Shown here one piece after another: positions 1 to 23,500 of a stretch of DNA of 39,772 nucleotides (its first letter is position 1; every line of letters starts with the position of its first letter). The stretch is from a virus. The notes beneath the pieces were generated by a model. That model made no database searches and was not told the DNA's origin. It worked only from the letters and a program-made list of their open reading frames with translations. The stretch lies in IMG/VR virus record IMGVR_UViG_3300045988_162015. One strand, 5' to 3'. The translations under genes were made by a program, and so were the position numbers.

Positions 1-54
1 AAAGAGGATTGCCGCAATCAAATTATGTTAGACAACAATATGCAACAATAGCCT

Positions 55-468: not shown

Positions 469-528
469 TAAATAGAATGCTGGATTGAAAATTGCCGTAG
501 CCAGATACAAGAGCCGTGAATCTTATAC

Positions 529-1647: not shown

Positions 1648-1650
1648 TAT

Positions 1651-2250: not shown

Positions 2251-2441
2251 TGGAAATACAAAATTTACTTAATTAGTTAGGTTGTGAGTTAGAACAACAA
2301 CAACAACATAATCAAAACCAAATTGATTATTTACGCAATGAAAATCAAAAATTAAAAAATAATTTATCAACATATAAATAGAATTTAATTGAATTAGCCG
2401 GTATCATAAATAGAATAGCTAATTAGATAGATGATTTTTAA
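2250..2441 (+). CDS. small Gln-rich coiled-coil protein (63 aa) with 3 in-frame TAG codons.
   Basis: The ATG overlaps the previous stop (TAATG). The frame is open to TAA 2439-2441 apart from TAG. The sequence is QQQQHNQNQ-rich. Confidence 0.4.
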
Positions 2442-2443
2442 AA

Positions 2444-2472
2444 TTGCTTTTGATGAAATTATATGATATAAT
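2444..2472 (+). promoter_or_regulatory. candidate sigma70-like promoter for the polymerase gene (-35 TTGCTT, 17-nt spacer, -10 TATAAT).
   Basis: TTGCTT at 2444-2449 and TATAAT at 2467-2472, sitting in the 67-nt gap between the stop at 2441 and the RBS at 2495. Confidence 0.35.
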
Positions 2473-2508
2473 ATTTATAGAAAATAATAGAATTAAGGAG
2501 GTAGGGAA

Positions 2509-5500: not shown

Positions 5501-6510
5501 ATAAAGTTAATCCTAATAAGCAAGCAATGATTTCACTTATTAAAGGTGGAGCATTTGATCATATGATGGATAGAAAACTTTGTATGGTCTGGTATATTTG
5601 GGAAACTTGTGATAAAAAGAAAAATCTTAATCTTCAAAATTTAGCTACTTTAATGAAATTCAATCTTCTTCCTGCAGATACTCTTGAACGGCAGCAAGCT
5701 TTACACATTTATGAATTTACTCGTTATTTAAAACAAATTTGTAAATATGATAAAGTTTATTACAAATTGGATGATAGAGCTATTGATTTTTTACAAAAAA
5801 TTGATAAAGATGATTTAATTCAGAGTAAAGATTCTAACTTTTATTTAAATATTAAAGATTGGAATGATAAAGTTTATCAAGGCTGGATGGATGTTTATCG
5901 TAAACAGATTGCTGATAATAAAGAAGAAATTTTAAATAAATTAAATGAAATTGTATTTAAAGAGGATTGGAAAAAATATTGTCCTAAAGTAAATTATTCA
6001 GCTTGGGAAATGGAAGTATTATGCTTCTATTATCATGAACATGAATTGGCTCAAGTTAATCAAAGCAAATATGGCTTCGCTGATTTTTATAGCTTACCTG
6101 AAGATCCAGTAGTAGAGAGAAGTTTTGTTAAAGCTGGAAAAACAATTAATATTTATTATTTATCTAAATTATGCGGTACTTGTATTGCTAAGAATAAAAA
6201 TAAAAGTATCGTAACAATTCTTACTCCAACAGGAGTAGTAAATGTAAAATTTAGAAAAGAATATTTTACATTATTCGATAAACAAATTTCTCAAAAACAA
6301 CCTGATGGAACTAAAAAAATTATTGAAAAATCTTGGTTTAATCGCGGTAATATGATTGTGGTTCAGGGCATTCGCTCCGGTGATGATTTCATCGCTAAAA
6401 AGTACGCCTCAACCGCTGGTCATCAACTTTATCATATTGATGAAATTCAATCTAATGGAAATTTAATTTTACGGAATAATCGTTTTTAGGGAGAAGCTGA
6501 AGATGAATAA
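2509..6510 (+). CDS. dnaE: DnaE-like DNA polymerase III alpha subunit (about 1333 aa) with a TTG start and one internal TAG (4963-4965) read as Gln.
   Basis: N-terminal PHP domain (FGCHNHTDYS...ITDHESL). The core contains GPGRGSA, DIDIDL and the block GYAFSLNHS...IQM just after the TAG. AAGGAGG lies 7 nt upstream of TTG 2509, and the upstream in-frame TAA at 2494 excludes an ATG start. The frame is continuous through the TAG at 6487 to TAA 6508-6510. Confidence 0.85.
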
Positions 6511-7072
6511 TAAAAAATATCAATTAGTAGCACTCATAGGTAAAGCCGGTTCAGGCAAAGATACTATTTTAAAAGATGTAGTAAAAGCTTATGAATTACC
6601 TATGAATATTGTTGTTTCTTATACAACTCGTCCAATGCGTGAAGGAGAGACAGAAGGAAAAGAATATCATTTTATATCTGAAGAAGATTTTAAGCAAATG
6701 ATAAATAATAATCAAATGCTTGAATATGTTCAATTTAACAATTGGTGGTATGGGACTGGCATTAAATGTTTAGCTGATGATAAAATTAATATAGGTATTT
6801 TTAATCCTTCTGGCATTAGATCATTAATCAATTTTCCAGAAATTGATTTACGGATATATTATATTCATGCTTCTGACAAACAACGTTTCCTTCGTCAATT
6901 AAATAGAGAGGAATACCCTGATATTAAAGAAATTATTAGGCGTTATTCTGCTGATGAAGAAGATTTTAAAAATATAAATTTTGATAATATGCAAATTTTA
7001 TTTAATGAAACTGAAAGAGATAGATTAAAATGCTGTGATATAATTACAGATTATGATTGGTTTTGGTACTAA
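6503..7072 (+). CDS. gmk: guanylate kinase-like / dNMP kinase.
   Basis: P-loop GKAGSGKDT and TTRPMREGE, the guanylate kinase signature. The ATG overlaps the polymerase tail. No TAG codons. Confidence 0.7.
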   Translation: MNNKKYQLVALIGKAGSGKDTILKDVVKAYELPMNIVVSYTTRPMREGETEGKEYHFISEEDFKQMINNNQMLEYVQFNNWWYGTGIKCLADDKINIGIFNPSGIRSLINFPEIDLRIYYIHASDKQRFLRQLNREEYPDIKEIIRRYSADEEDFKNINFDNMQILFNETERDRLKCCDIITDYDWFWY

Positions 7073-7108
7073 ATTTTAAGCCAAAATAGATAATTAACTA
7101 ATAACAAA

Positions 7109-7152
7109 CACTAAATATAGTATAAGTTTAAAAATTCATACTATATTTAGTG
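7109..7152 (+). promoter_or_regulatory. perfect 15-bp stem-loop immediately upstream of the nrdD RBS. It is not T-tailed, so it is a possible RNase III or attenuator site rather than a terminator.
   Basis: CACTAAATATAGTAT, a 14-nt loop, then ATACTATATTTAGTG, followed by GGAGG and ATG at 7164. Confidence 0.4.
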
Positions 7153-7163
7153 CGGAGGTTAAA

Positions 7164-8450
7164 ATGTATATAATTAAACGTGATGGTACAGTTGTATTAT
7201 TTGATAAAAATAAAATAATTAATGCTATTAACAAAGCATTTATAGAAGTCGATGGATAGTTATATGAAAATGATACAGCTACTGATATTGCCAATGATAT
7301 TGAATCTTGGATAAATAAATGTCCAGATGGTAGTATTGAAGTAGAAGATATCCAAGATATAATTGAAGATTATTTAATGTAGTCAGAACGACGTGATGTT
7401 GCTCGTGCTTATATTAGATATAGATATAAAAAAGAAGTAGCTCGATAGAAAAAAGATGATTTTATTCAAGCTATTAGAAAAAAATTAGATGGTAAAGATA
7501 TTAAAAATCAAAATGCTAATGTAGATGAAGCATCATTCGGTGGCCGCATTGGTGAAGCCAGTAGTGTTGTAACGAAACAATTAGCTTTAGATTATATTGT
7601 ATCTCCTATGACACGCAAAAATCATTTAGAAAATATAATTTATACTCATGATTTAGATGCTTATTATGTTGGTTCTCATAATTGTTTAAGTGTACCTTTT
7701 GATGATTTACTTGCTAAAGGATTTAATACACGTCAAACTGATGTGCGTCCGGCAGGTTCAGTAAATACAGCTTTCCAATTAGTAGCTGTTATTTTCCAAA
7801 TTCAAAGTCTTTCTCAATTTGGTGGCGTTAGTGCTACTCATCTTGATTGGACTATGGTTCCTTATGTTCGTAAATCTTTTTATAAGCATTATCGTGATGG
7901 TATGAAATATTTATGCAATTGTAATTGGAATTTAAATAATTATTTAGAAGATAGCGACAGCTATAAAAGAATTATAGATATTCCAATCAATGATTATTCT
8001 GCATATTCAAATGAAATAGATGATGTTGGAGATTTTGATAAAGTATATCAATATGCTATGGATATGACTTTAAAAGAAGTTCATCAAGCAGTTGAAGGTA
8101 TGTATCATAATCTTAACACATTACAATCACGTTCTGGTAATCAATTACCTTTCACATCTATTAATTATGGTACTTGTACTCTTCCAGAAGGAAGAATGAT
8201 TACTAAAGCTCTTTTGGATGTATCTATTGAAGGTATTGGTAAATTACATAAAACATCTATTTTCCCTTGTGGTATTTTCCAATGCATGAAAGGAGTTAAC
8301 CGTGAACCAGGTGACCCAAATTACGATTTGTTTAAACTCGCACTATAGTCCACCGCCCAAAGATTATATCCCAACTATGCAAATGTTGATTGGTCAGGGA
8401 ACGCTGGATATGACATTAATGACCCCCGCACCTATTTTTCTACAATGGGT
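7164..8450 (+). CDS. nrdD: anaerobic ribonucleoside-triphosphate reductase NrdD, exon 1 (ATP-cone plus the N-terminal part of the core), with 4 in-frame TAG codons.
   Basis: ATP-cone MYIIKRDGTVVLFDKNKI. Conserved DPNYDLFKLAL[TAG]...RLYPN...STMG ends at a U at 8450, and exon 2 continues with CRTANGYD. Confidence 0.85.
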
Positions 8451-9300
8451 AAGCGAAAACTCAGCCCATTTAAAATCTTTTGAACCGCGCCAGCGGGTGT
8501 CTCTATAAAGAGGCTAACGGTTAGGTCTTAATATAATTGGCTGTAATATTAAGATGAGACCGTGCTAAGATTCATCATAATATTCATATAAAGGAGGTAT
8601 CCTTAATGTGGATATATAAAATAACAAATATTCAAAATAATAAAGTATATATTGGTTAGTCTATTAGACCAATTAATCAAAGATTCCAAAGACATATAAA
8701 TGATGCTCTTAATAATATTCTTGATACTCATTTTGCCAGAGCAATAAGAAAATATGGTAAAGAAAATTTTATTATAGAAGAAATTGATACAGCAAACACG
8801 CAACAAGAGTTAAATGAAAAAGAGCAATATTGGATTAAATATTATAATTCAGTAATAGATGGTTATAATGAAACAGACGCTATTTCTAAATGCGGTGGAA
8901 ATACTTATCAATCTAAAACTGATGAAGAAATAGAAGTTATTAAAAATAAAATTCGACAAACTAAAGTAGGAAGTAAAAATCCTATGGCTAAAAAAATAAA
9001 AAGAATAAATATTTTTACTAATGAAATAGATATTTTTGATACTATTATTAGTTGTGCTAAAGCTTGTGGAATTTAGAATGGTAAAACTTCTATTACAAAT
9101 AGATTAAATGGAAAAATTAAAAGTCCATTTAGAAATACTTGGAAATTTGAATATTATGATGAATAAAGTGTATCGACTATCCCTGATGAATGTAAGGGAG
9201 TAGGCTTGGAGATAGGCACCGAGCCGAAGCGGAAGACAACTCTATTTTATAGATAGAATGATAATATAGTCAGTGCCAATGGTGACATTGGGTAATCATG
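8451..9300 (+). mobile_element. group I self-splicing intron (850 nt) in nrdD carrying a homing endonuclease ORF.
   Basis: The 5' exon ends in U. The P1 pairing is exon AATGGGU with intron GCCCATT about 13 nt in, with a U-G wobble at the splice site. The intron ends in G at 9300. The exons rejoin in frame (…STMG|CRTANGY…), matching the NrdD family. Confidence 0.75.
8606..9166 (+). CDS. GIY-YIG homing endonuclease encoded inside the intron (186 aa), with 2 in-frame TAG codons at 8657 and 9074.
   Basis: WIYKITN...KVYIG[TAG]S GIY-YIG motif, a conserved Arg (RFQRH), and a Glu in EQYWIKYY. AAGGAGG lies 8 nt upstream. The 187-codon count was verified by hand. Confidence 0.8.
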
Positions 9301-10278
9301 TGCAGAACAGCCAATGGATACGATATTAACGGTTTCGGTTAGCTAAAAGATGGCCGTGGTAATATTTGTCCAGTAACTATTATTCTTCCTACTTTAGCTA
9401 TGATTGCTAAAAAAGAATGTGAAGAAGAAGGGCAAGAAGAAGATATTATTCCAGTATTTATGGCTTTATTAAATAGAAAAATTAATGAAGCTCGCATTCA
9501 ATTAATGGAGCGTTTTGATTGGATTTGCTCTCAAGATCCTAAGTCTGCTAAATTTATGTATGAAAATAATTTAATGGCTGGCTATATTCCAGAAGAAGGA
9601 ATTAGAAGTGCCCTTAAGCATGGCACATTAGCCATTGGACAAATTGGTTTAGCAGAAACTCTTTAGATTCTTATTGGTAAAGACCATACAACTAAAGAAG
9701 GTATGGAATTAGCGAAACGAATTGAACAAATGTTTAAAGATTACTGTGCAAAAGCAAAAGAACAATTTAAACTTAATTTTGGAGTTTATTACACTCCTGC
9801 TGAAAATTTATGCTATACAGCAATGAATAAGTTTAAAGAAAAGTACGGCATTATTCCTAATGTGTCTGACAAAGAATTCTTCACTAACAGTATTCATGTT
9901 CCTGTATGGAAGAAAATGTCTCCATTTGATAAAATTGATATTGAAAGTCAATTAACTGGTTATTCTTCTGCTGGATGCATTACATATGTAGAGTTAGATT
10001 CTACAGTAAAACACAATATTGATGCCCTTGAACAAATTGTCAATTATGCTATGGATAAGGATATTCCTTATTTTGCAGTAAATGTGCCTAATGATACTTG
10101 TTTAAGTTGTGGATACTGTGATGAATTTAATGATAAGTGCCCTGAATGTGGTAGCCCTAATATTCAATAGTTACGTCGTGTTACTGGTTATCTTACTGGT
10201 AATTATAAGACTGCTTTTAATTATGGCAAACAAAAAGAAGTAGAAGCACGAGTAAAGCATACGGGGTAGATGGAATGA
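9301..10278 (+). CDS. nrdD: NrdD exon 2 (glycyl-radical and Zn-ribbon C-terminal half), read through 4 TAG codons. It ends at TGA 10276-10278.
   Basis: CRTANGYDINGFG...RGN, the Zn site CLSCGYCDEFNDKCPECG, and the glycyl radical motif RRVTGYLTG. The frame matches ORFs 9400..9666 and 9703..10170. Confidence 0.85.
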
Positions 10279-10622
10279 TACATTCAATTTATGATTTAGC
10301 GAATTATTTTAATTAGAAAGAGGGAAGGAAATATCCTTGTTCTAATTAGATAGTAATATGTGCTTATATAACAAATAATTCACAAGAAGTCTATGATTAT
10401 TTGAATAAAAATAATATTATACCAATCAGAGTATCAAAAACTCGTATAGAATGGCAAGAAAATAATGAGCGATGGATATGGTTACCTATAACCTAGAATA
10501 CTAGAGGCTATAGATTTAATAAAGTAAAAATATCTAAAAATTATAATAATGAAGAAATATTAAAAACAATAATTATTCCTTATTGTAGTTTATATTGTTG
10601 CTCTTGGGAGGTTATGGAATGA
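10275..10622 (+). CDS. possible small hypothetical protein (115 aa) with 3 in-frame TAG codons, sitting between nrdD and nrdG.
   Basis: The frame is open from ATG 10275 to TGA 10620-10622 apart from TAG. ATGA-type overlaps occur at both ends. No recognisable motifs, so it may be spurious. Confidence 0.3.
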
Positions 10623-11104
10623 AATATGCAGGAATTATAAAAAATGATATTGCCGCAGCTCCGGGAGTATGTGTCTCCTTTTTCACCCAAGGTTGCCCCC
10701 ATCATTGTTTTGGATGTCATAATCCTGAAACTTGGGATTTTGAAAAAGGTAAAGAATTTACCAATGAGACTTTTGGAGAAATATTTCAAGCCCTTCAAGC
10801 AAATGGCATTCATAGAGATTTTTGTATAATGGGTGGTGAACCATTATGTGAACAAAATCAATTACTCACTCTACTTCTTATTAATACAATTAAAGAAAAA
10901 CTTCCTGATACTAAAATTTATATTTGGACTGGGTATTACTATGAAGATTTAATTAAGCAAATTACTAATGGTAAACTTCAAGAAATTCTTAAAAAAGCTG
11001 ATGTATTAATTGACGGTCCATATATTCAGTCTCAAAGAGATATTACATTATCAATGAGAGGTAGTAAAAATCAAAATATTATAAACTTAAAGGAGATGAA
11101 TTAA
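10619..11104 (+). CDS. nrdG: anaerobic RNR activating protein NrdG (radical SAM).
   Basis: MKYAGIIKNDIAAAPGVCVSFFTQGCPHHCFGCHNPETWDF, the CxxxCxxC-type NrdG cluster. GGGAGG lies 7 nt upstream of ATG 10619. The ORF-track start at 10595 is a TTG. Confidence 0.8.
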   Translation: MKYAGIIKNDIAAAPGVCVSFFTQGCPHHCFGCHNPETWDFEKGKEFTNETFGEIFQALQANGIHRDFCIMGGEPLCEQNQLLTLLLINTIKEKLPDTKIYIWTGYYYEDLIKQITNGKLQEILKKADVLIDGPYIQSQRDITLSMRGSKNQNIINLKEMN

Positions 11105-11619
11105 TGAGATACAGAGGAAAGATTGCCAATTTAGAAGAAGCAATATAGAAAGAACCAAAAGCAGGAGATGTATTCTATAATACTACTGATACCCATAATT
11201 ATGTTTGGTCTGGCACTGAATGGAATGTTCTAACTGATGGTGTTGATTTTAAAATGAACAATTATGAATTAAATAAATGCGTAATTGGCCAAATGAAAGA
11301 ACTAACTCCAGAAGAAATAGATAAAAAATTAGAAGTTATTGATACCTATGTTCAAGAAAGTTCTGATAAGTATTTTATGCTTTTGTGTAATGAACTAAAT
11401 TATTATACAGTATTTGAAACTAATAGTTTAAGTAACGATAATCCCTATCTTAATATGACTTCTGCCGTTTATGATATTATTAAAGATTTAGGACAGATTA
11501 AAGATATTAATGATAGTGGCTCTGGGGCAGTTGAAATTTGGATTACAAATAACGATGAAACTCATTGTTATCATTTATTCGATTATGATGCTGGCATTGT
11601 TCCAGTAATAGGGAGATAA
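11104..11619 (+). CDS. hypothetical protein (171 aa) with one TAG at 11149-11151.
   Basis: ATG at 11104 (TAATG overlap with nrdG), in the same frame as ORF 11254..11619. Confidence 0.55.
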
Positions 11620-11621
11620 TT

Positions 11622-11882
11622 ATGTTATTTACTTATTTTGATTTATTTAATACAACACAAATTGTTTATTACCAAGGACCAAATGATAAGAAACCCATTA
11701 TGGTTTGTACTTGCCGTCTTGACAATCTTAGTGATACTTTAACTAAACTATCAGAACAATATAAAGATAGTGATATTCATCTTTATGGCAATCAAACTTA
11801 TGGTGAAGGTCTTAAAGAAACTATTGAAAATTCTTTAATTACTAAGTATAGTAATAATAATATTAAAGTTTATGTAAATTAA
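11622..11882 (+). CDS. hypothetical protein (86 aa).
   Basis: ORF track. Tightly packed; no TAG. Confidence 0.5.
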   Translation: MLFTYFDLFNTTQIVYYQGPNDKKPIMVCTCRLDNLSDTLTKLSEQYKDSDIHLYGNQTYGEGLKETIENSLITKYSNNNIKVYVN

Positions 11883-11893
11883 TAGGAGAAAAT

Positions 11894-12169
11894 ATGTTTG
11901 AATATTTGATTAATACTACTGAAGTATATAGAGTAGATACAGAAAAAGAAGCAGCTGAGCTTATTAATAATGCTAAGCAAAATAGAGAATATGATTTAGC
12001 TAAATATTCTTCTACTAAAAAAGAACGCAAATAGAAGGGCGAAATTATTGATGAATGGTATCAAGTAACTCTTGTGAAAAAATTCAATGATGAAAAAGAA
12101 CCTACTGATCATATTTCACTTTGCTATACAACTAAAGCTAACTTTGATGGGGAGACTGTAATTAATTAA
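11894..12169 (+). CDS. hypothetical protein (91 aa) with one TAG.
   Basis: ATG 11894 is preceded by AGGAGAA. The frame is open through TAG to TAA at 12167-12169, which overlaps the dut ATG. Confidence 0.5.
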
Positions 12170-12717
12170 TGAGTATTTATTTTGAAAAGGTAAGTAAATA
12201 TAATGATTGGGATTTGTCGATGCCAGAACGTAAGACTAAATATAGTGCTGGTTATGATTTCGCATCTGCTGAAGATGTTGTAATTCCTTCATATACCCAT
12301 ATTGTAGAAGCTTTTAAAAATGGGGCAGCTACTAACGATATTATTTCTTTGAATGATATGGCTAAAATTACTAAGGGACTTAATTTAAAACCTACTCTTA
12401 TCCCTACTGGAATGAAGTGCCATATGGAAGATGGACAATTCCTTGAACTATCTGTTCGTTCTTCTTTACCTTTAAAACATTGGATTATTCTTGCTAATGG
12501 AGTTGGCATTATTGATGCTGATTATTATAACAATCCTGATAATGAAGGACATATTTATTTTCAATTAATTAATCTTTCTCCTTTTGATATTGAAATTGCC
12601 AAAGGAAATATTATCGGTCAGGGCGTTATTCGAAACTACCTTATTACAGATGATGATAAGGCTGAAGGCACAAGAATTGGTGGATTTGGTTCAACCAGTA
12701 AGGACGTTAATAATTAA
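12169..12717 (+). CDS. dut: dUTP diphosphatase (dUTPase).
   Basis: RKTKYSAGYDF (motif 3-like) and the C-terminal RIGGFGSTSK (motif 5). No TAG. Confidence 0.8.
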   Translation: MSIYFEKVSKYNDWDLSMPERKTKYSAGYDFASAEDVVIPSYTHIVEAFKNGAATNDIISLNDMAKITKGLNLKPTLIPTGMKCHMEDGQFLELSVRSSLPLKHWIILANGVGIIDADYYNNPDNEGHIYFQLINLSPFDIEIAKGNIIGQGVIRNYLITDDDKAEGTRIGGFGSTSKDVNN

Positions 12718-12759
12718 TCAATAAATAATAATCTCCTTCTATAATAGGAGGAGATTTAT

Positions 12760-13266
12760 ATGAATTTTTTATTTTTAGACTTATCCACTAAATCTACTGG
12801 ATACGCTATATCAGATGACAAAGGTAAATTAATTACTTATGGATTAATTACTGCATCTTCTTCTAATAATGTAAGCCGTATCCAAAAGATACAAAGTGGA
12901 ATTATTGAATTAGTAAAATAGTATAATATAGAAAAATTAATTGCTGAAGATGTTCATCCAGAAGCCTATGGTTATTCAGATACTGCTCGATTACTTATGT
13001 GGCTTCAAGGGTCTATAGTTCTTGGTGCTCATAGTGTAAATGATAATATAAATTCCAAAAGCATAGAATTTATGCAAGCTAGTGAATGGCGAAAAAATTT
13101 AGGAATTAAAACAGGTCGCGGTATTAAACGTGAAAACCTCAAGCCTCTTGATATAAAATATGTAAAAGATACATACGGTATTGAGGCCAATGATGATGTC
13201 TGCGATGCTATATGTTTATATACTGCATATTTTAAATCATAGTAGGATGAATTAAATTGGGAATGA
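12760..13266 (+). CDS. RuvC-like Holliday junction resolvase with 3 TAG codons, two of them tandem at 13240-13245.
   Basis: N-terminal FLDLSTKSTGYAIS (RuvC catalytic Asp region) and DVCDAICLY (the C-terminal acidic motif). AGGAGG lies 8 nt upstream. The protein continues 6 aa past the tandem TAG to TGA 13264-13266. Confidence 0.7.
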
Positions 13267-13352
13267 CGGGCAATTTTATACAATTATATAATTCTTTCTT
13301 TCATTTATAATATGAGAAAGAGCGACAAATCCATGTCGGGAGGATTATATAA

Positions 13353-13784
13353 ATGTTAGAATTTATCACAACACATCTGCTTGAAATTATTTTTGGATTA
13401 ATTTCCGCGGGCGCCCTAGCTTTCTGCAAACATCTTCATAGCAAAATGAAAACTTATAAAAAACTAACTGAAGAAAAAGAGAATAGTACTTTAGATAATA
13501 CAATTGAAACTCATATTGAGCCAATTCGTCAAGAAATTGAAGAATTACGAAAGTATGTACTAGAAAGCAATAAAATTGCAAATAATCATATGGATGTAAT
13601 TTTAGCTTCTTATCGTTTTAGATTGACTCAATTATGTAAAGCATATATCCAACAAGGATTTATGACAAATGGTGAGTACGAACAATTAGTAGAATTTTAT
13701 AAAGTTTATACTAGCTTGGGCGGAAATGGTCAAGCAAAGACCTATTATGAACGGGCAATCCAATTACCTGTTCATGACGTATAA
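13353..13784 (+). CDS. membrane protein with one N-terminal TM helix; function unknown.
   Basis: GGGAGG RBS. The hydrophobic N-terminus is LLEIIFGLISAGALAF. It is the last + strand gene before the convergent terminator. Confidence 0.55.
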   Translation: MLEFITTHLLEIIFGLISAGALAFCKHLHSKMKTYKKLTEEKENSTLDNTIETHIEPIRQEIEELRKYVLESNKIANNHMDVILASYRFRLTQLCKAYIQQGFMTNGEYEQLVEFYKVYTSLGGNGQAKTYYERAIQLPVHDV

Positions 13785-13785
13785 G

Positions 13786-13830
13786 AATAAAAAAAAATAA
13801 GGGAAGCAATTGCTTCCCTTATTTTTATTC
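13786..13830. terminator. bidirectional intrinsic terminator between the convergent + and - gene blocks.
   Basis: An A-run, the palindrome ATAAGGGAAGCAATTGCTTCCCTTAT, then a T-run. It is flanked by the stop at 13784 on the + strand and the stop at about 13831 on the - strand. Confidence 0.6.
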
Positions 13831-14382
13831 TTATACAATTTTTGTAGCTAATGTGGCTATCTTTCTTTGTAATAATTGTTTTTCTTCAGGAGTAGCATCC
13901 TGAATCATTTCTAAAAGATCAGAAGTTAGAACTTGGGCATAATCTTCTAACTCTCTCATCTATTGGGCCTGGTCCATATGGCGTTCCTTACTTTCAATGT
14001 AAGATTTACGTTTCATTGGGCTATGGCCCATTTTTTTATTATCATTATTCATTCCGCCTGTGCCTGTATAACTATAGCCGTTATATCCACCATCATAATC
14101 TTTAGTATAATATTTATCTTCATGATAATCATTATCTATATAATAAGGATATGGATTTTTACGTTTACGAGGATCTTTCATCATGCCAATGCCATAAACT
14201 TCTTCCTCTTTACTTTCTATCATAGCATCTACGATTGATCCATAATAACAAGCCTCAGCCAGGTCTTTAATCATATCAATGACTTCTCCCATTTCATGAG
14301 TATCTGCTTGCTGAGGATTAGCCATTTGCTATTCGACTAAATTTATTAAGGTATTTTTAATCTAACATAATTTTTCCATCAT
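13831..14382 (-). CDS. hypothetical acidic Tyr/Asp/Gly-rich protein read through TAG codons. The start is either ATG 14382 or ATG 14325.
   Basis: ORF 13960..14325 continues through the TAG at 13960 to TAA near 13831. An in-frame upstream ATG at about 14382, reached through 2 TAG codons, has a weak SD. Confidence 0.5.
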
Positions 14383-14384
14383 AA

Positions 14385-14804
14385 TTAAGCCACCCTTTCT
14401 ATAATAAGACTGGCATTTTCAACACTGACGGCAGAAGCACTGGTATTCTCAACACTTATCTATTGGCAACATCCACGTGGAACATTTAAAAATAAAGCAC
14501 GAGAAATACTATTAAACTATTCTACTGCGGTTGGAGTTGAAATCATTGTAGTTTCTGCAACAGGCTCCCCATTAATAGCTATTGCCAAAGAAATAGGAGC
14601 TACAGTTGCACCAGTTGGAAGAGCTACATTAGCTCCAAAAGTAACCTTAAATCTGGCTCTACATTGATTAGTTATGCCTCGTAAAGTTACTAATCCGCTA
14701 CCTTCACGATGTACCATGGCGCAACTGCCTGGAACAGCGGTATTAGTAAACACTACATTACTATTGGCATTTACCGTTTGTAAAGCATTAGCTGTTATTT
14801 CCAT
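14385..14804 (-). CDS. small beta-rich hypothetical protein read through 2 TAG codons.
   Basis: ORF 14517..14804 has an AAGAGG RBS. It continues in frame to TAA near 14385. Confidence 0.5.
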
Positions 14805-14824
14805 TTTTTAACCTCTTTTCTTTA

Positions 14825-15676
14825 TTAAGCAGTATATTGGCATCCGCATCCAGTATAATTAGTTCCTGCATAAGGATTTTGAACAACATAAGCTGGGATA
14901 GGAGCTTTGCTGCTTAATTGGTCTATTAAATAAGCATTCTGTAAATTTTGAGAAATCTGACCTTTAAGAGTAGCATTTTCAGCAGTAAGAGTTTCAATCT
15001 TATCTTGAACAAGGAAGTCAAGAATAGAACGCATACTGGCATTAGTATTATCAATAATATCTCTTACTCCTTCATTAACTACTTGACGGTTTTGACAAGC
15101 TTGACTTACTAAATTATAGTTTAGATCAGCAAAGCTTGATGTAATAAGATTCTTATTCTCGCAGCAGCAATGAGCATTTGTTGCTGCCATATTATTTAAT
15201 TGCTGAGAAAGAGCGTTTGTGTTCTACATATTAGCAATAGTATCAGCATTAATAGCTTGAGTAATACCAAAAGTATTCTACATAGCATTCATACCTAAAT
15301 TGCTAATATCAGATTGTAAAGTACGAGCATTTCCGTTTAAAGTTTCAGTAACACCTGCAAAGCCAGTTAATAAATTATTATTAACGCCAGCAAAACCATT
15401 ACATAAACCTGTCTGTAAAGAATTAATACCAGACTTAATGTCACTTACATCAAAGCCATAAGTTAATTCTTCTCTTGTTGTAGTTCCCTGATATCCAGAA
15501 CCATTGGCGCCATTACCCCAGCCATTTCCGCCCCAGCCATTGAAGCAGAAAAGGAAGAGAATAATTATCCACCATGCACCATTACCCCACATACCATCAT
15601 CACCATTACGGTATCCATTACCGCCTGTGGCCGCGGCAATATCAGCTAAACTATAACCATTACTTGTGTTGAACAT
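14825..15676 (-). CDS. hypothetical protein (283 aa): Gly/Trp/Asn-rich with one TM segment, Cys clusters (HCCCENK, GCGCQYTA) and a C-terminal coiled coil.
   Basis: ORFs 15278..15676 and 14825..15190 share a frame and are joined by 2 TAG codons. AGGAGG RBS. TAA at 14825-14827. Confidence 0.6.
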
Positions 15677-15702
15677 ATAAATGTCCTCCTTTAATAAAAA
15701 TA

Positions 15703-15939
15703 TTATTTAATCCCAAGCTATTGCTTAAAGGAATTAAATTCTTTATCAAAGTCTAACCCTTTCTATGCACACATGTTACGTGCTATTTGCTCTATTCCAC
15801 TAATATTTCCATTCTATGCCATCTATAACAAATTATTCGCCATTGGATTATTCTATTGCTATAAAAATGACATCATTAGCTATTGAGGATTAGACCCACT
15901 TCTTATCATTTGAATAATCTACATAGGATTCATTTGCAT
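15703..15939 (-). CDS. small Gln-rich protein (78 aa) with 9 in-frame TAG codons. It is invisible under the standard code.
   Basis: AAGGAG RBS then ATG. The frame is open to TAA except for 9 TAG, giving MQMNPMQIIQMIRSGSNPQQLMMSFLQQQNNPMANNLLQMAQNG… It fills an otherwise 280-nt non-coding gap. Confidence 0.45.
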
Positions 15940-15952
15940 AACTCATTACTCC

Positions 15953-16384
15953 TTAAAAATTAATCTGTGGCTTAGACTGTTCTTCTGCTTTTGGCTATTG
16001 CTTTTGCTACTAAGTCTACTAAGCTATCATATTTAATGCACCTTTAATATCATTTAATGTTTCATCAAATTCCTAACGAGTAACAAAATTAGATGAATTA
16101 AAAGCTTCAGTAGGAACTTCTTTATACTCATACATATTCATAGATGCTGTTCCATCTAAATTAATTTGCTTAGTATAAATCCTTTTATTAGCCAAATCAG
16201 GAAAGAAAAATACAGAACCATCAAAATCAATAGCAGCAGCTCTTGCTTCCTCTAATGAAGAAACTGGCCGACCTTTTAACCCAATAAAAGCTGGCTATTG
16301 CTACTAACTTGAAGGTATTATTGTATTTGCTCTTTGTGGTTGATAATAACTTTGATTATTTCCAAAACCTTGATATAAATTCAT
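15953..16384 (-). CDS. hypothetical Gln-rich protein (143 aa) with tandem TAG runs (TAG TAG CAA TAG, and TAG TAG ACT TAG TAG).
   Basis: ATG about 16384 with an AGGAT-like SD. The frame is open to TAA near 15953. The revcomp of 16261-16320 and of 15981-16040 shows the tandem TAG codons in frame. Confidence 0.5.
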
Positions 16385-16419
16385 AACTAAAATCCTTTCT
16401 TATTTATTCTTTCTATACT

Positions 16420-16470
16420 TATATAAAAATTATTGTCAAATAATTTTCCAATTTTGTCAAAATTTTTGGA
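16420..16470 (-). promoter_or_regulatory. possible promoter region with two TTGACA hexamers on the - strand, lying between the terminator and the downstream operon.
   Basis: The - strand reads ...TTGACAAAATTGGAAAATTATTTGACAATAATTTTTATATAAGTATAG... No clean 17-nt TTGACA/TATAAT pair. Confidence 0.25.
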
Positions 16471-16510
16471 AAAAATTTAGGGCATTTTAATATAATAAAT
16501 AAGCATAAAA

Positions 16511-16543
16511 AAAATGGGAGAACCGCATTGGTTCTCCCATTTT
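16511..16543. terminator. intrinsic terminator at the end of the late structural operon on the - strand. It is T-tailed on both strands.
   Basis: TGGGAGAACC-GCATT-GGTTCTCCCA, flanked by an A8 run upstream and a T-rich tract downstream. Confidence 0.65.
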
Positions 16544-16544
16544 A

Positions 16545-16952
16545 TTATTTTGTTTCTGTTGGAGTAATTTTATTTGAACTGACTTCTTTTTCAATCTTAG
16601 AAGAAATATATTCATTTAAATCTCCAACAGCAGAATTCAAATATTCGATAGCATCTTGACCTAAAATAGCAATTACTTTATTATAAACATCAGTAAATGC
16701 TTTTTTCTATGCTTCGCCATCAAATTTTCCTTGCTGTTTTAATGAATTAACATAAGTCTAATTCATTGCAATAACACAATCGGTAATTGTATTATCAAGC
16801 ATATCTAAATATTTTTTAGCTAATTCACTATCTGTCTGTTGCTTTAAAGCGTCCTTTTTAGATTTAATCCAAGCAACTAAGAATGTCGTTAAAATTCCGA
16901 GTAAAGGAATAATACAAATTTGAAATATTTGCGCAACTAATTGAGCATCCAT
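16545..16952 (-). CDS. small membrane protein (about 135 aa; N-terminal TM then a charged domain), a possible holin. It is read through 2 TAG codons.
   Basis: ORF 16758..16952 has a GGAGGA RBS. It continues in frame to TAA near 16545. TM segment IFQICIIPLLGILTTFLVAWI. Confidence 0.5.
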
Positions 16953-16965
16953 TTAAAATTCCTCC

Positions 16966-19900
16966 TTAATCTAAATAATCTGTAATATAAACATTTTGCC
17001 CAAAAACATAAGGAGAAGAATCTGGATATTTTTCACTTATGACTTCAATAGATATATCATTCTTTAAGTTAAATTCATAAGTTACTTCAGCATATCCCCA
17101 TAATCCTTCTGACGGAGCAACCTAACATTTAGCAGATTCTTTCATCAACGTATTATTATAAAAAATTTTACTAGTTATTTCTCCTATTTCCGTTGTAGAT
17201 TTATTTCTACTAAGTGTATGAATTGTTATTTTATCTCCTTCTTTAGCTGTAAATTTTGGAATATTTGTTTTTGAGATTCCATCAATAGATATTGAAGTAT
17301 CTACAAGATTTTTTGTAGTAATCCCAATCCATTTATTCCAAACTAAATTATTGTTTAAATATTGAGTATCTAAATACCAACTAGAATAAGCAGTTTTTTT
17401 ACTAATTTCTTGCTAAGGATTCTATTGTATTGAAATAATGGAATTCTGGCTGTTACCTGAAACAGATATTAAATCCCAATTATTTTGAATATAAAGTCCC
17501 CAATAACTGCTAGTTAATGTAGGATTATAAAAATTAATAAGAATTACTTCTCCACTGTCAGAATTAATTGTTAAATCAGGCAAATTAGCCCCAGCATTAT
17601 CTCCAAAATTAATTATTAACTATGGAGTGCTACTACCTGCATTTTTTATTGCTTCTTGATTTAATTTAGTTCCATTTAATATTTGTTTGATAATAAATTC
17701 TAATCCATCATTAACATGATCTACATAATATGTTTTTAAAATATTGTAATTAAAAATATAATCATTATTACCATTACCCTCAGAACCTTCATAAACAATA
17801 TTATTTGATAAATGTTCTACAGCAGTTATATTAATAATTTTTTTAGCTAATGGGATTCCAGGCAAACCAGTTAAAGTACCAATTTTTTCCCAATTATCAA
17901 ATAAAAACTCCTAATCTTCTAATGATTGAACTGGATCTTTTTTATACTAAAAAATATGTCCACGTGTAGAATCACTTAAATTATCTGTAATATTAATAAA
18001 TAAATCATTTTTAGAAAGAATAGGACCAATATAACTCTCTTTATTACCTATTACTTTTTCAATATTATTATTAATTGTATCTATAGAAACAGTTAATCCA
18101 GAATTTTTAGGAGTAAGAATATGAATAGGCAAAGGAGTTTCTAAATCAATTTGTTCCATATTTTTACTTATAGGTCTTATATTAGATACTTTGTAAGTCT
18201 ATTCATTTTTAACATTTATAGTTTTTATTGATATATCAGGATATTTAGGAATGGAAAAATTAAAAATTTCCTAATAAGTACCAATATTATCCTCTTCTAA
18301 AATACTACTTTCAACTACAATCTAATTTTTAATATAGCTGTTATCTTTATCTTTGATAAAAGAATCAACTAATTCTGTTTTAGCTAATGGAGCCGGTGCT
18401 GTAATAGCTCCTAAATAAATACCAGTAATCTAAGAAGAAGTTATCTCATATAAACTATAAATTTTCCCTGTTGGCTCATTTATATAGAAATCAGCTTTAT
18501 AGCCATTATTAGTTATATCATAAAAATGGTCCCCTAATGTAGCATATTCAGCCAATATTGATAAACAATAATTAGCTATACTACTATTTTCAAAATAATA
18601 CACAGAACCAATATCATCTTTTTTATTATTATTTATTAACTTTAATAAAATATTAAATAAAGAATATATTATTTGATCAACCTAAACTAAAGATCTAGGA
18701 TACATATCATTAAATAAATAAAATAAATTCTATTGACTACTTGAATTATATTCTGAATCTACCCAATACCATTCATATTCTAATTTATTTTTAATTTGCT
18801 ATAATTTAAAATTATCAGCTAAATAAGTATATAATTGCTAAGATAATTTAGTTATTTCTAAATTATTTTGAGGATTAAATAAAACTCTTTCATCAGGCTA
18901 AGCATATATTGCATTTAAATTATTATTGAAAAAATGTTTATTATCAATAATATTCCCATTTTCATCATATATTACTTTATCTTCTTTTAGGATATGTAAT
19001 AAATAATACGAAATTCGTGACAGTATAGAAACCTAATTTTTCCGGATTGTATATTTATAATCATAATTCTGATATCCATAAGTTTTATAATTACCCATAT
19101 TATGAAAATAAGATAATGGTCCTAATCCAAATAAAGAACCAGAAAAAAATGTTGGAGCTTTAGGCAAATCAAAAGTTAATTGAGGCCTAGTTAATGTTGC
19201 TGTCTTAATATTTCCATTTTTATCAAAATAAGTTCCTTCAGTTTTAAAATAAACATTTGGATCTTCCTAAGAGCCAACTATATTTTTATATACTTCTTCA
19301 ATACGCTATCCACGTTGTAAATAAAATTTAATTTTAGGAGTATCAGGATTGGTTAAATCTAAAGTAACATAAGGATCTCCATCTTCAATATCTATAGTCT
19401 AATGAAATACTTGAATACGAGGAGTAACGCCAGTTACGCAAGCAATTAAACGATATCCAAAACCAAAACATTCTTCACTTTCTAAATCAGATACTTCATG
19501 AAGAGATTCTCCATATTCTTCTTTATTATCTTCTTCTAAATTTAAGAAAATATAAATATTATTATCATTCTAAGGAAAATCTGGAGAAACTGTTAAATTT
19601 CTATCTACATAGATTTTCTACCACAATGAATTAGTATATGATTTTCCGCTATCTTTTAAATCTATCTGAAGATTAATATTATAGTTGGAGGTTTCTTCAT
19701 TCATATAAGATGGATCACCATAATTAATAAAAACATAATCTCCAACATTTACAGGAGAAGTCCATCTTGCTTTTAAATCTCCAACCATGTCAATAGCACG
19801 ATTGGCAAATATTCGTGTTATTTTAAAGTCTTGCCCTTTTTGTCCACCATAAAAGCTATACATTTATTAGTCTCCCCCTTCATATGTTTCATAAGTAAAG

Positions 19901-20568
19901 TCTATAATTATATTATATAAATCTACAATAGTTGGATCAGGTACATATACTCCTGCTTTACCTTTTAAATAAATTCCTAAACCACTTTTATACTAAGTTA
20001 TATAATTTTGATGAGCATTATTATATTCAGTCCAATATTCTGAACCAGCTTCAGTGCGATCAGGAGCCTAACCCAATGTTTTTTCTAATTCATTAATTTT
20101 CTATAAAAATGTATCTCTTGCCACTTTCATTATTCCAGTTCCAGTAGCCTATAACTATTGACTCAATTCTTTATTTATAATATAATTCTAAGGACGTTGA
20201 AATCTTAAATAATTAATTACAATATCATCATTAAGTTCATAAATACCAGTACGTCCAACCATAATCCATTCCCCAGTGTCTTGCGTAGTTGCTTTATTAA
20301 AAGTGAATTTAGTACCAGGGGGTGCCTAAATGCCTATTTTTTTTACATTATTGAAGCCTTTTAAAATATTAGCCCCAAAAATATCTATTTTTTTATTTTC
20401 ATAATCTGTTTCATCATTTGTAGTAGTTTCAGTAGAATCATTTAAATTATTCTAATATACAGCACTATATACTAACTCAGATAAATCTCCCTATTTAGTA
20501 GAAACTAATCCACCAGAACCACCATAGTCCTCTAAATTATAAACAATTTGTTTAAATTGAATTCCCAT
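16966..20568 (-). CDS. large virion structural protein (about 1200 aa), probably a tail fiber or baseplate protein. Single frame with many TAG codons.
   Basis: ORFs 19618..19863, 17947..18159 and 17620..17865 all sit in the same frame. GGAGG then ATG at about 20568. TAA at about 16966, followed 13 nt later by the next gene's RBS. Confidence 0.7.
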
Positions 20569-20579
20569 TATTTACCTCC

Positions 20580-23500
20580 TTATACTCTTGTTAAAGCTTC
20601 ATTTGTTGTAATCGACATATTTCCATTATAAGTTAAAGGAAGAGTATATTGAGTTATAACAAATTCCCCTTGTATATTACTTTTTCTATCATTTATATAA
20701 ATTAAATTATTAGGTTCTAAATAATATCTTGGCGCACAATTAATAGTAATAGTTAAATTATAAATTAAATACTAATATAACATTTCTCTTATATAATCAA
20801 ATGCCGTACTTCCTGTTCCGCTAGAACTAAATAATTTCATTTGCCCCGGTTTTAAAGCACAATAAGCCTAACCTTTTAATGTATAATCTTCTATCTTTTG
20901 AATTAAATCTGCTTCCCCAGTATTTTCAAAAAATATGATATCAGGCACTTCTAATTTATATAAAAGACTCATATTAGTTTTAGTCAATGCTTTAGTACGC
21001 CGGCCTATTTTATTAACTGAATATCTAGATACTAACTAATCTACATCAATAAAATCTAACCAATATGTTATTAAGCTAGGGTCAAGATAAATAGCAGGAT
21101 TCCATCCAATCCAAGTATCAGGTATGATTTCTTCATTTTGATTTTCTTCAGAAAAATTTTTTGATTCAATCTAATCAATTTGATTCCGCCATTCTTCATG
21201 CCAAGTTTCATTCTAAGGATTAAATATTTGTTTACGCCACAGATATTCACCATCTATTTTAGCTAATAATTCATCATCATAGTCTCCTTTCTGAGTGCCA
21301 TTTTCATTATTTAATAAAGCTTGTCTAAATAATTCTTCACGCCATTCATTACAAGGAGTACCAATTAAAGTAAAATAAAAATTATCTTCATAATCAAAAG
21401 GAGGTTCTTCAGGAGTATATGTAATAATTTTAATTTTATTATTATCATTAATAGTAGAAAAATCAAGAATATTAGAATTATAAGCTTTAGTAATTTCTTC
21501 AATAATTTCATTTAATGAATAATTACCATCATCACGTAAAATAAAAATTTTTTTTATTATATCTTCCTAATCACCTAAGATTTTTAACTAATCTTTTTTA
21601 CCATCTACTGGATCTAAGAATGGTAACAATAAATTACTTCCTCCCGATGTATTTCCATTTGATGTATTATCTTTATTATTATTCTCTTCATTGGGTTTTA
21701 ATGTAAAACCTGGATCTAAAATATCTAAAGGCATAATTCCATAATTTGGATCTCTAGGAGTAGGACCAGGTATATTATTATCTTCTGAATTGCCAGGTTT
21801 ATTTGACTCAGATGGATCATCTTTAGGAATTTCTTCCATATCTTTATAACTATAAATTAGTTCAATATCTGAAGTTAAATCATCTTTATTTGTTTTATAA
21901 TATTCTAATAATTTTTTAACTAAATCGTTATGTTCTTCTTCAGTAATAACAGTTTCATTATTTTTATTTTTTATTACTGGATAATTATTAGGAAATACAT
22001 AACTATATTCTATCTTCTTTTTAGATTCATTGTAACTAATTAATTTATAACTAGCAACAATAGTATTATTTATGGAAATTAAATTATTAGAATCAATAAA
22101 ACTAAAATCATAATCCTTATTTTTTTCATCAAAATTTATATCTTTAATAATTTTAATATAATAATTAATTTTAACAGTATTTAAAAAATTTTCTATATTT
22201 CTTAATGAAAGTTCTTCAGTTAATTCGTAAACCTAAATCCACTAACCTTCACTATCATAATAACCTAAAATATTTTTATTATCTATATTTTTTATTATAG
22301 TTAAATAATATTCTTTAGATTCATTAATCGTTGTATTATTATTATTATTATTATTATCATCAGACTTATCATTAGAAGAATTATTATTTTTATTTGCATT
22401 ATTTTCTTGATCTGCTGGTAACATAAAATCTGGATCTAACACTGTAGAACCTGGCTCTGGTACCATAAAACCTGGATCTAATTCTTTTGTATTAGATATT
22501 AACATAATGCCGTAATTTTCTAAATCTCCAGTCCCTTGGCCTTTACGCCACCAAGAGGCAGGAATACCAAAACCCGGATCTAATGTATCATCATCTTTAT
22601 AATTGTTATTTTTATTATTATTATTTTCATTAGAAGAATTATTATTACTTGGCCAACTATCAGTAGCATCTTTTTTAGGATAAACACCAAGAGCTAAATG
22701 AGTAAAGTCAATAATATCAGTTAAATCTTCAAGATATTGAAATCCTATAATTTCTTCATCTAATAAAGTAATTTTATAATATCTTATCTAATTTAAAAAT
22801 ATTATTTTATAATATAAAATAAACTAATCGCCAGTGTAAAAAGAATAATTCTTTAAAATATTTTCAATTATATCTTCTTTAATGTTAGATTCAATTACTT
22901 CATCCGCCATTTCTTCATGATTAACAGAATAAATAATTTCTAAAGCTTTTTTATCAGGTGTCTAATTATAATTACTTTTTTTATACTCAAATAAATAAAA
23001 AGCATGGTCACCATTACCTCGAACTACATCCCACATATATTGATTAGCTAAATCAATTTGAGGTTTTTCATCTATAGCTAAATGATACTATATAGTTTTA
23101 GTAACTCCATTACTATTAGTTTTATCGCCCCATACAATAAAATCATTTTTTATATTTTCATATTTAGGACTATTATAATAAGATAATGCATCTTTAGCAT
23201 TTGCAAAAGTATAATAATATTTACTATCTGAAAAAGCTTTTATATAATAAGTATCATTTATTTCTGTAATAGGAGTATAATAATAATTTAAATAATTCTT
23301 TTTCTACTAAAATACAAAATGACCATCTAAATCATAAAAATATTCATAATTTCCTAAAGATTCAATAATTTTATCAAGGACAGAAGTTACTGTGTCTCCC
23401 GCAGAAAATACTAATTCTCCTGGATAAGTAAAATCTGTTTCTTGATATCCTACGTCTTGTCCATAAATAAATTTATGCTATAAAAAATTTTCATCTTCAG

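What the first reader, a model, noticed from the sequence alone, without database searches (positions are those of the whole stretch)
15703..16384. Two small Gln-rich late proteins with extreme TAG usage, one in an apparent non-coding gap
- The 280-nt gap between two called genes contains ATG 15939 with an SD. Its reading frame is open for 78 codons except for 9 TAG, giving a Gln-rich product.
- The neighbouring 143-aa gene carries in-frame tandems TAG-TAG-CAA-TAG and TAG-TAG-ACT-TAG-TAG.
- At about 11% of codons, these genes would be completely untranslatable without efficient suppression. They are candidate strictly suppressor-dependent late proteins, or fast-evolving fillers.
Basis: seen in the sequence. 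Interest (0 to 1): 0.6.

Follow-up and report, generated by a model that had tools for sequence, protein, structure and literature searches.

The report
Two ordinary genes in amber-recoded phage
The "empty gap" holds a real, strongly conserved 78-residue gene. It and its 143-residue neighbour are normal late genes of a gut phage that reads TAG as glutamine, and they look TAG-dense only because the proteins are rich in glutamine.

Summary
Both reading frames exist, on the minus strand.
- ORF-B (16384..15953) is 143 codons with 9 TAG, or 6.3%. Both TAG tandems are as described.

The whole window is TAG-recoded; one 2,898-codon tail gene carries 110 TAG.

ORF-A is not a chance frame.
- About 4,100 database proteins match its profile.
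- It lies directly after an ORF-B homologue in 51 of 52 related loci. These include standard-code phages (Clostridium perfringens phage CPD1, Dulem virus 36) that have CAA/CAG where the window has TAG.
- dN/dS against close relatives is 0.05-0.14, so the "fast-evolving filler" reading is refuted.

The TAG usage is not special.
- TAG makes up 57% (A) and 47% (B) of Gln codons, against 50% in the other late-strand genes (p = 0.40 and 0.68).
- The density comes from Gln content: 17.9% and 13.3%, against 5.5%.

The pair opens a conserved five-gene cassette (B-A-C-D-E) just downstream of a holin gene, flanked by terminators. None of the five proteins matches a characterised family, so the function is unknown. 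No suppressor tRNA lies in the window. Verdict: a known phenomenon and a correct gene call, of low interest.

The parts
15703..15939 (-). ORF-A: 78 codons plus TAA, with 8 in-frame TAG read as Gln. Predicted to be a small five-helix bundle rich in Gln, Met and Asn.
15949..15954 (-). AAGGAG ribosome-binding site of ORF-A, 9 nt before the ATG and overlapping ORF-B's TAA stop (15955-15953). This suggests the two genes are translationally coupled.
   Evidence: Sequence. In standard-code relatives the B and A genes overlap by 1-8 nt.
15953..16384 (-). ORF-B: 143 codons plus TAA, with 9 in-frame TAG. It has a disordered Gln/Asn/Tyr-rich N-terminal tail, a conserved core (GLKGRPVSS...IDFDGS...IYTKQI..DG) and a long C-terminal helix.
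16393..16398 (-). AAAGGA ribosome-binding site of ORF-B.
   Evidence: Sequence upstream of ATG 16384.
16432..16460 (-). Sigma-70-like promoter match (TTGACA, 17 nt, GACAAT) lying within two conserved TTGACAA repeats upstream of ORF-B. This is a candidate cassette promoter or regulator site.
   Evidence: Promoter scan, 10 of 12 positions, although the total number of matches in the region is no higher than chance. The intergenic region is 90% identical in relatives whose synonymous divergence from the window in ORF-A and ORF-B reaches 0.8.
16511..16543 (.). Strong bidirectional intrinsic terminator between the holin gene and ORF-B.
   Evidence: Stem of 14-15 bp followed by a T run. Conserved in relatives.
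16545..16952 (-). Holin gene (135 aa) immediately upstream of the cassette.
   Evidence: phrog_13712 'holin', E 4e-29. A holin homologue lies upstream of B in 30 of 52 loci.
14825..15676 (-). Gene C (283 aa). It has a Gly/Trp-flanked hydrophobic segment near the N-terminus, coiled segments, and CCC and GCGC cysteine motifs. It follows A in nearly all loci and is TAG-poor.
   Evidence: phrog_16490, a family of unknown function, E 2.7e-35. Homologues in phage CPD1 and Dulem virus 36. Synteny. TAG share 0.10 across recoded loci.
14385..14804 (-). Gene D (139 aa), of unknown function.
   Evidence: phrog_20016, a family of unknown function, E 5e-52. Synteny.
13831..14382 (-). Gene E (183 aa), with conserved N- and C-terminal segments around a variable Tyr-rich middle. 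Last gene of the cassette.
   Evidence: Synteny. No family match.
13793..13826 (.). Bidirectional terminator that closes the cassette where it meets the plus-strand replication genes.
   Evidence: 15-bp stem followed by a T run.

Best explanation
The window comes from a gut phage that reads TAG as glutamine (genetic code 15). Contigs carrying near-identical copies of both genes reach about 185-192 kb. ORF-B and ORF-A are two genuine genes under purifying selection and are probably translationally coupled. They open a separately terminated five-gene cassette (B-A-C-D-E) just downstream of the holin gene.

Shown:
- Both genes are real and conserved.
- TAG stands where standard-code relatives have CAA or CAG.
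- Their TAG density is what Gln-rich proteins (18% and 13% Gln) would carry when about half of all late-gene Gln codons in this phage are TAG.

Inferred:
- A phage-encoded amber-suppressor tRNA outside this window decodes TAG.
- Translation of these genes, like that of every structural gene here, therefore waits for the code switch.
- TAG built up by C-to-T change at CAG in an AT-rich genome once TAG had become synonymous with Gln.

Guess on function (low confidence, about 0.2): B and A form a small cytoplasmic complex that works with the membrane-anchored, cysteine-rich protein C in a late step at the cell envelope. That step would be an accessory to lysis, not the lysis system itself.
For: Recoding:
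- All 28 long ORFs read through 263 in-frame TAG and close on TAA or TGA. One 2,898-codon tail gene has 110 TAG.
- The standard-code relative L003 ends its B gene on TAG, has no TAG in A, and has Gln at 5 of the window's 8 TAG positions in A.
- Across 16 orthologues, the non-TAG codons aligned to the window's TAG positions in A are mostly CAA (19) and CAG (11); the next most common is GAA (6).

Reality of the genes:
- 318 and 4,097 hits for A, and 4,719 hits for B.
- B and A are adjacent in 51 of 52 loci, from 30-kb to 190-kb phages.
- dN/dS is 0.05-0.14 for A and 0.06-0.23 for B, with dS up to 0.8.
- The codon model prefers the proposed frames.
- A random gap gives an ORF this long in 0.3% of trials.

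TAG usage:
- TAG share of Gln codons is 0.57 and 0.47, against 0.50 in late genes and 0.16 in early genes.
- Gln excess is significant: p = 5e-5 and 2e-4.

Cassette:
- Terminators lie on both sides and the holin is upstream.
- Every cassette gene has a Shine-Dalgarno sequence.
- The upstream region is conserved.
Against: - No tRNA gene is in the window or in 39 related loci, so the decoding agent has not been shown.
- 'Late' expression is inferred only from position.
- That no gene ends in TAG is partly built into how I called the ORFs. The independent support is that the C-termini of A and B match those of standard-code orthologues.
- Phage CPD1 and Dulem virus 36 carry the cassette away from their own holin and lysin genes.
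Confidence: 0.85

Rival explanations
1. A and B are preferentially recoded 'gate' genes. Their TAG density would have been selected to block translation of a lysis-linked cassette until the suppressor is present, in the sense of Borges et al.
For: - The cassette follows the holin gene.
- It has its own terminator-bounded unit and a sigma-70-like promoter, which might allow early transcription.
- Across 28 distinct recoded loci the TAG share of Gln codons is 0.41 (B) and 0.38 (A), against 0.10 (C), 0.22 (D), 0.28 (E) and 0.22 (holin).
- A+B exceeds C in 13 of 15 lineages that I grouped by eye from the per-locus table, p = 0.007.
- The first TAG comes early in each gene: codon 7 in A and codon 27 in B.
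- Borges et al. report this kind of bias for lysis genes (bioRxiv 10.1101/2021.08.26.457843).
Against: - Measured against the phage's other late genes, A and B are not enriched: 0.57 and 0.47 against 0.50 (p = 0.40 and 0.68). The tail-fibre family stands at 0.50.
- The anomaly is that C is depleted and keeps its CAG codons, not that A and B are enriched.
- A and B have no transmembrane segment or lysis domain.
- The cassette is not next to the lysis genes in phage CPD1 or Dulem virus 36.
- The promoter scan finds no more matches than chance.
Confidence: 0.12
2. ORF-A is a chance open frame in an AT-rich spacer. It appears open only because TAG is not counted as a stop.
For: - With TAG allowed, the window holds roughly 25 spurious ORFs of at least 70 codons.
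- ORF-A's codon score (+0.15) is below that of the long genes.
Against: - Thousands of homologues of the same length.
- Conserved position in 51 of 52 loci.
- Intact, TAG-free orthologues in standard-code phages that GenBank annotates as CDS.
- dN/dS 0.05-0.14.
- A confident predicted fold.
- A Shine-Dalgarno sequence at the right spacing.
Confidence: 0.01
3. A and B are fast-evolving, low-complexity filler proteins with no constrained function.
For: B's N-terminal tail and C-terminal end vary in length and sequence between lineages, and 8 of its 9 TAG lie there. The N-terminal tail is also predicted with low confidence.
Against: - The core of B has invariant or nearly invariant residues across 106 sequences that are 33-57% identical to it.
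- A has 12 invariant and 18 nearly invariant columns in 52 sequences.
- One TAG in A (codon 20) sits at an invariant Gln.
- dN/dS is low.
Confidence: 0.03
4. TAG in these genes is read as something other than Gln, or acts as a programmed stop that yields short peptides.
For: No suppressor tRNA was found whose anticodon and identity could be read.
Against: - CAA and CAG are by far the commonest alternatives at the aligned positions.
- Sequence downstream of the TAG codons is conserved under purifying selection in the same frame.
- Public catalogues already hold full-length 78-aa and 143-aa products.
- Metaproteomics has confirmed TAG read as Gln in other gut phages (PMC9523058, abstract as listed).
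Confidence: 0.02

Closest known systems
TAG-to-Gln (genetic code 15) recoded gut phages (Borges et al., bioRxiv 10.1101/2021.08.26.457843; Peters et al., PMC9523058; Yutin et al., PMC7886860)
   Same: - In-frame TAG at Gln positions.
- Low GC content (about 28%).
- TAG concentrated in structural and lysis genes (share 0.50) and sparse in replication genes (0.16).
- Close relatives that use the standard code.
   Different: - The suppressor tRNA, release factor and tRNA synthetase genes are not in this window.
- A and B are not among the families reported there as preferentially recoded (in crAss-like phages an amidase, a spanin and a tail-tube family are named; the Agate set is different).
- A and B are not enriched over this phage's own late genes.
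- I did not assign the clade.
CPD1_036 / CPD1_037 of Clostridium perfringens phage CPD1 (MH999280) and the equivalent pair in Dulem virus 36 (PP511521); all are annotated 'hypothetical protein'
   Same: - The same gene pair in the same order, followed by a C homologue.
- 33-45% (B) and 35-38% (A) identity to the window proteins.
- The two genes overlap or nearly abut.
   Different: - These phages use the standard code and have no TAG in either gene.
- They are small (39-54 kb) siphophages.
- The cassette is not next to their own holin and lysin genes, and it carries a different, cysteine-rich protein in the D position.
PHROG families phrog_21718 (B), phrog_16490 (C) and phrog_20016 (D), all of unknown function
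   Same: Sequence matches with E 1.3e-5, 2.7e-35 and 5.3e-52.
   Different: These families carry no functional information. A has no PHROG match at all.
Pfam DUF6240
   Same: 5 of 12 diverse members of the A family give a weak match to positions 181-241 of the model.
   Different: The best score, 19.1 bits, is below the curated cut-off of 26.6. The match covers a fragment of a 276-position model that itself has no known function. This is not membership.

Membership tests
Genetic code 15 (TAG read as Gln) phage | Long conserved ORFs contain many in-frame TAG codons and fragment under the standard code | tested here: met
   263 TAG in 28 ORFs. Under table 11, B is cut to 26 aa and A to 6 aa.
Genetic code 15 (TAG read as Gln) phage | TAG aligns with Gln codons in homologues that use the standard code | tested here: met
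   CAA and CAG dominate the non-TAG codons at the window's TAG positions. L003, which ends its B gene on TAG, has Gln at 5 of 8 sites in A.
Genetic code 15 (TAG read as Gln) phage | TAG is not used as a terminator | tested here: inconclusive
   All ORFs close on TAA or TGA, but I defined the ORFs that way. The independent support is that the C-termini of A and B match those of standard-code orthologues.
Genetic code 15 (TAG read as Gln) phage | A phage-encoded amber-suppressor tRNA (CUA anticodon), with or without a release factor or tRNA synthetase | tested here: not met
   No tRNA gene in the 39.8-kb window or in 39 related loci of 3-20 kb. Contigs that carry these genes reach about 185-192 kb, and the rest of the genome was not available to me.
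Genetic code 15 (TAG read as Gln) phage | TAG use is biased towards late (structural and lysis) genes | tested here: met
   TAG share of Gln codons is 0.50 on the structural strand and 0.16 on the replication strand.
Preferentially recoded gene family (in the sense of Borges et al.) | TAG share among Gln codons is significantly above that of the phage's other genes | tested here: not met
   Against late genes, p = 0.40 (A) and 0.68 (B). The share is higher only relative to cassette neighbours C, D, E and the holin.
phrog_21718 (ORF-B) | Significant match to the family profile over most of its length | tested here: met
   E 1.3e-5, residues 14-135 against profile positions 22-154 of 159. The match is weak and the family has no known function.
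Pfam DUF6240 (ORF-A) | Score at or above the Pfam gathering threshold | tested here: not met
   19.1 bits against a cut-off of 26.6, covering only part of the model.
Canonical phage lysis cassette (holin plus endolysin, or an accessory protein) | A transmembrane holin-like or cell-wall hydrolase domain in A or B, and constant linkage to the lysis genes | tested here: not met
   No such domain was found. Phage CPD1 and Dulem virus 36 keep their holin and lysin genes elsewhere. Linkage to a holin holds in only 30 of 52 loci.

The most novel reading that the evidence does not exclude
B-A-C-D-E could be an uncharacterised late-gene module of a new kind. It is shared by thousands of gut phages of Bacillota, both recoded and standard-code. 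It might be a new accessory system for egress or cell-envelope remodelling, built around the membrane-anchored, cysteine-rich protein C. In recoded lineages the graded TAG load (high in B and A, low in C, which keeps CAG) might set the order or ratio in which the components are made.
Probability: 0.12. Interest if true: 0.55.

Novelty: already known. Interest (0 to 1): 0.2.

Why it matters
- The finding is a practical reminder about annotation. Genes of recoded phages disappear, or leave apparent non-coding gaps, when the wrong translation table is used. Here the correct call was already present in public protein catalogues.
- It also shows that raw TAG density is a poor sign of special regulation. 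TAG must be normalised to Gln content and compared with the phage's other late genes.
- The one lead with wider value is the conserved five-gene cassette of unknown function. It could be studied experimentally in the cultured, standard-code C. perfringens phage CPD1.

Tried and rejected
Function searches that found nothing useful:
- Pfam, PHROGs, NCBIfam and PADLOC scans of A and B and of cassette genes C, D and E gave no characterised family.
- PDB sequence searches with single sequences and with profiles gave nothing below E 0.1.
- A Foldseek search of B against BFVD gave no informative match. The afdb50 library was not available.

Ideas I considered and dropped:
- From memory, D resembles BclA/ExsFA-type or endospore-appendage jelly-roll domains.
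- I considered whether the cassette is the phage's lysis module. Dulem virus 36 and phage CPD1 carry their own holin and lysin genes elsewhere, so I rejected this.

Other searches without result:
- A megablast search of 13800-20600 against GenBank phages found no match.
- tRNA scans of the window and of 39 related loci found none.
- Rfam gave nothing at gathering thresholds, and only sub-threshold hits driven by the terminator hairpins near the cassette.
- Literature searches found no virion proteomics or functional study of these families.
- I did not assign the phage to a named clade. The Phassvirus paper (PMC10607447) was read in outline only.

Full report
**1. What is in the sequence**

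GC skew changes sign near 13,800. Plus-strand replication genes run into minus-strand structural genes there, so the finding lies on the minus strand.

- ORF-A runs from ATG 15939 to TAA 15705-15703. It has 78 codons and 8 in-frame TAG, at codons 7, 20, 27, 29, 39, 42, 59 and 74.
- ORF-B runs from ATG 16384 to TAA 15955-15953. It has 143 codons and 9 TAG. The tandems TAG-TAG-CAA-TAG and TAG-TAG-ACT-TAG-TAG are both there.
- TAG therefore makes up 10.3% of codons in A and 6.3% in B, not about 11% in both.
- An AAGGAG site at 15954-15949 overlaps B's stop codon and sits 9 nt before A's ATG.
- Under the standard code B stops after 26 residues and A after 6.

**2. The whole window is recoded**

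With only TAA and TGA as stops, the window resolves into 28 long, tightly packed ORFs that carry 263 in-frame TAG. These include a 2,898-codon tail gene with 110 TAG and four other tail or baseplate-sized genes with 18-28 each.

TAG is 16% of Gln codons on the replication strand and 50% on the structural strand. This is the pattern described for code-15 phages (Borges et al., bioRxiv 10.1101/2021.08.26.457843, read).

No tRNA gene is in the window or in 39 related loci. No Rfam family reaches threshold. The suppressor is therefore inferred, not shown.

**3. ORF-A is a real gene**

- A random 276-nt gap of this composition gives a closed ATG ORF of at least 78 codons in 0.3% of trials.
- The proposed frame is preferred by a codon model trained on the late genes (+0.15, against about -0.7 for the other frames). 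ORF-B scores +0.61.
- A single-sequence search found 318 proteins, nearly all 76-80 residues long, on contigs up to about 191 kb.
- A profile of 12 diverse members found 4,097 proteins.
- In 52 related loci from IMG/VR, ENA, GenBank phages and MAG contigs, an A homologue lies immediately after the B homologue in 51.
- GenBank already annotates the pair as CDS in standard-code phages: CPD1_036/037 of Clostridium perfringens phage CPD1, and the equivalent genes of Dulem virus 36.
- Against close relatives, dN/dS is 0.05-0.14 for A and 0.06-0.23 for B, with dS up to 0.8.

The chance-ORF and filler readings are refuted. The one exception is B's Gln-rich N-terminal tail and C-terminal end. These hold 8 of its 9 TAG and vary in length and sequence between lineages.

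**4. TAG means Gln**

Relative L003 (a 134-kb contig) ends its B gene on TAG and has no TAG in A. It has Gln at 5 of the window's 8 TAG positions in A. Across 16 orthologues, the non-TAG codons aligned with A's TAG sites are CAA (19) and CAG (11), followed by GAA (6). B shows the same pattern. One of A's TAG codons, codon 20 in the NPQQ motif, sits at a Gln that is invariant in 52 family members.

**5. Is the TAG usage extreme?**

No. TAG is 8 of 14 Gln codons in A (0.57) and 9 of 19 in B (0.47). In the other minus-strand genes it is 0.50; the binomial p-values are 0.40 and 0.68. What is unusual is the Gln content: 17.9% and 13.3%, against 5.5% (p = 5e-5 and 2e-4).

The need for near-complete suppression is also not specific to these genes. 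A product with 110 TAG demands far more than one with 8 or 9.

One real heterogeneity does exist. Across 28 distinct recoded loci the TAG share is:

| Gene family | TAG share of Gln codons |
|---|---|
| B | 0.41 |
| A | 0.38 |
| Tail fibre | 0.50 |
| C | 0.10 |
| D | 0.22 |
| E | 0.28 |
| Holin | 0.22 |

C keeps 228 CAG against 234 CAA. A+B exceeds C in 13 of 15 lineages that I grouped by eye from the per-locus table (sign test p = 0.007). The outlier is C's depletion, not any enrichment in A or B.

**6. Context**

- The gene upstream (16545-16952) is a holin (phrog_13712, E 4e-29).
- A strong terminator (16511-16543) separates it from B.
- A second terminator (13793-13826) closes the unit after three more genes: C (283 aa, with a hydrophobic N-terminal segment and CCC/GCGC cysteine motifs), D (139 aa) and E (183 aa).
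- The order B-A-C-D-E, usually preceded by a holin, recurs across the related loci.
- The 160-nt region upstream of B is 90% identical among relatives whose synonymous divergence from the window in ORF-A and ORF-B reaches 0.8. It contains two TTGACAA repeats, and both carry the same A-to-G change in two relatives.
- Phage CPD1 and Dulem virus 36 have their own holin and lysin genes elsewhere, so the cassette is not the canonical lysis pair.

**7. Function**

Nothing characterised matches.

- The sequence libraries (Pfam, PHROGs, NCBIfam, PADLOC) gave no characterised family for any of the five proteins. PDB sequence searches were run for A and B only and also found nothing.
- AlphaFold2 gives a confident five-helix bundle for A (pLDDT 87.6).
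- For B it gives a disordered N-terminal tail, a small helix plus three-strand domain, and a long helix (pLDDT 82).

My working guess is an A-B complex that acts with membrane protein C in a late step at the cell envelope. It rests only on the coupling of the two genes, their co-inheritance and their position, and I hold it at about 0.2.

**8. Comparison and verdict**

This is a correct gene call inside a known phenomenon. Proteins up to 97% (A) and 99% (B) identical are already in public catalogues at full length; one 96%-identical B sequence is recorded on 682 contigs. The interpretation 'suppressor-dependent late proteins' is true only in the sense that it applies to all late genes of this phage. 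'Extreme or special TAG usage' and 'filler' are not supported. Interest is low. The residual value lies in the widespread cassette of unknown function and in the TAG-poor, CAG-retaining gene C.

Noticed in passing
window 13831-16952 (-); loci L001-L052: A five-gene cassette B-A-C-D-E, usually just downstream of a holin gene, is conserved in phage contigs from about 30 kb to 190 kb, in both recoded and standard-code genomes. None of the five proteins matches a characterised family.
   Followed up: partly
window 14825-15676 (-), gene C, and its homologues in L001-L051: Gene C avoids TAG (share 0.10 of Gln codons across 28 recoded loci, against about 0.4 in the adjacent genes A and B). It also keeps CAG at about the level of CAA, unlike every other family examined. 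In the window, cassette genes have GC3 of 0.17-0.35, against 0.11-0.12 in the tail genes. I have no explanation.
   Followed up: partly
window 16385-16544 (-): The region between the holin gene and B is 90% identical among relatives whose synonymous divergence from the window in ORF-A and ORF-B reaches 0.8. It holds two TTGACAA repeats, and both show the same A-to-G change in L012 and L013. This may be a binding site for a regulator or a phage-specific promoter.
   Followed up: partly
window 7164-10278 (+): The anaerobic ribonucleotide reductase (NrdD-like) gene is split at ...STMG | CRT... by an insert of about 0.8 kb that carries what looks, by eye, like a GIY-YIG homing-endonuclease ORF (8606-9166). 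The layout suggests a group I intron, but Rfam gave no intron match. In relative L001 the gene is in one piece; in L003 it is also split.
   Followed up: partly
window 1-13800 (+) versus 13800-39772 (-): TAG makes up 16% of Gln codons in the replication genes and 50% in the structural genes. The DNA polymerase III alpha gene has 2 TAG among its 57 Gln codons.
   Followed up: yes
L030 2409-2720 and 4895-5200: In small standard-code relatives the cassette is preceded by a small sigma-70 region 4 / DUF1492-like regulator. It is followed by a different, cysteine-rich protein in the D position and by a rubrerythrin-like protein.
   Followed up: partly
L035-L052 (genome-contig hits): Several contigs of 120-176 kb that carry the cassette are filed in MAGs named Acutalibacteraceae, Bacilli, Mollicutes, Methanobrevibacter or Bacteroides. 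They are probably phage genomes that were binned into bacterial MAGs, so these names are not reliable host assignments.
   Followed up: no
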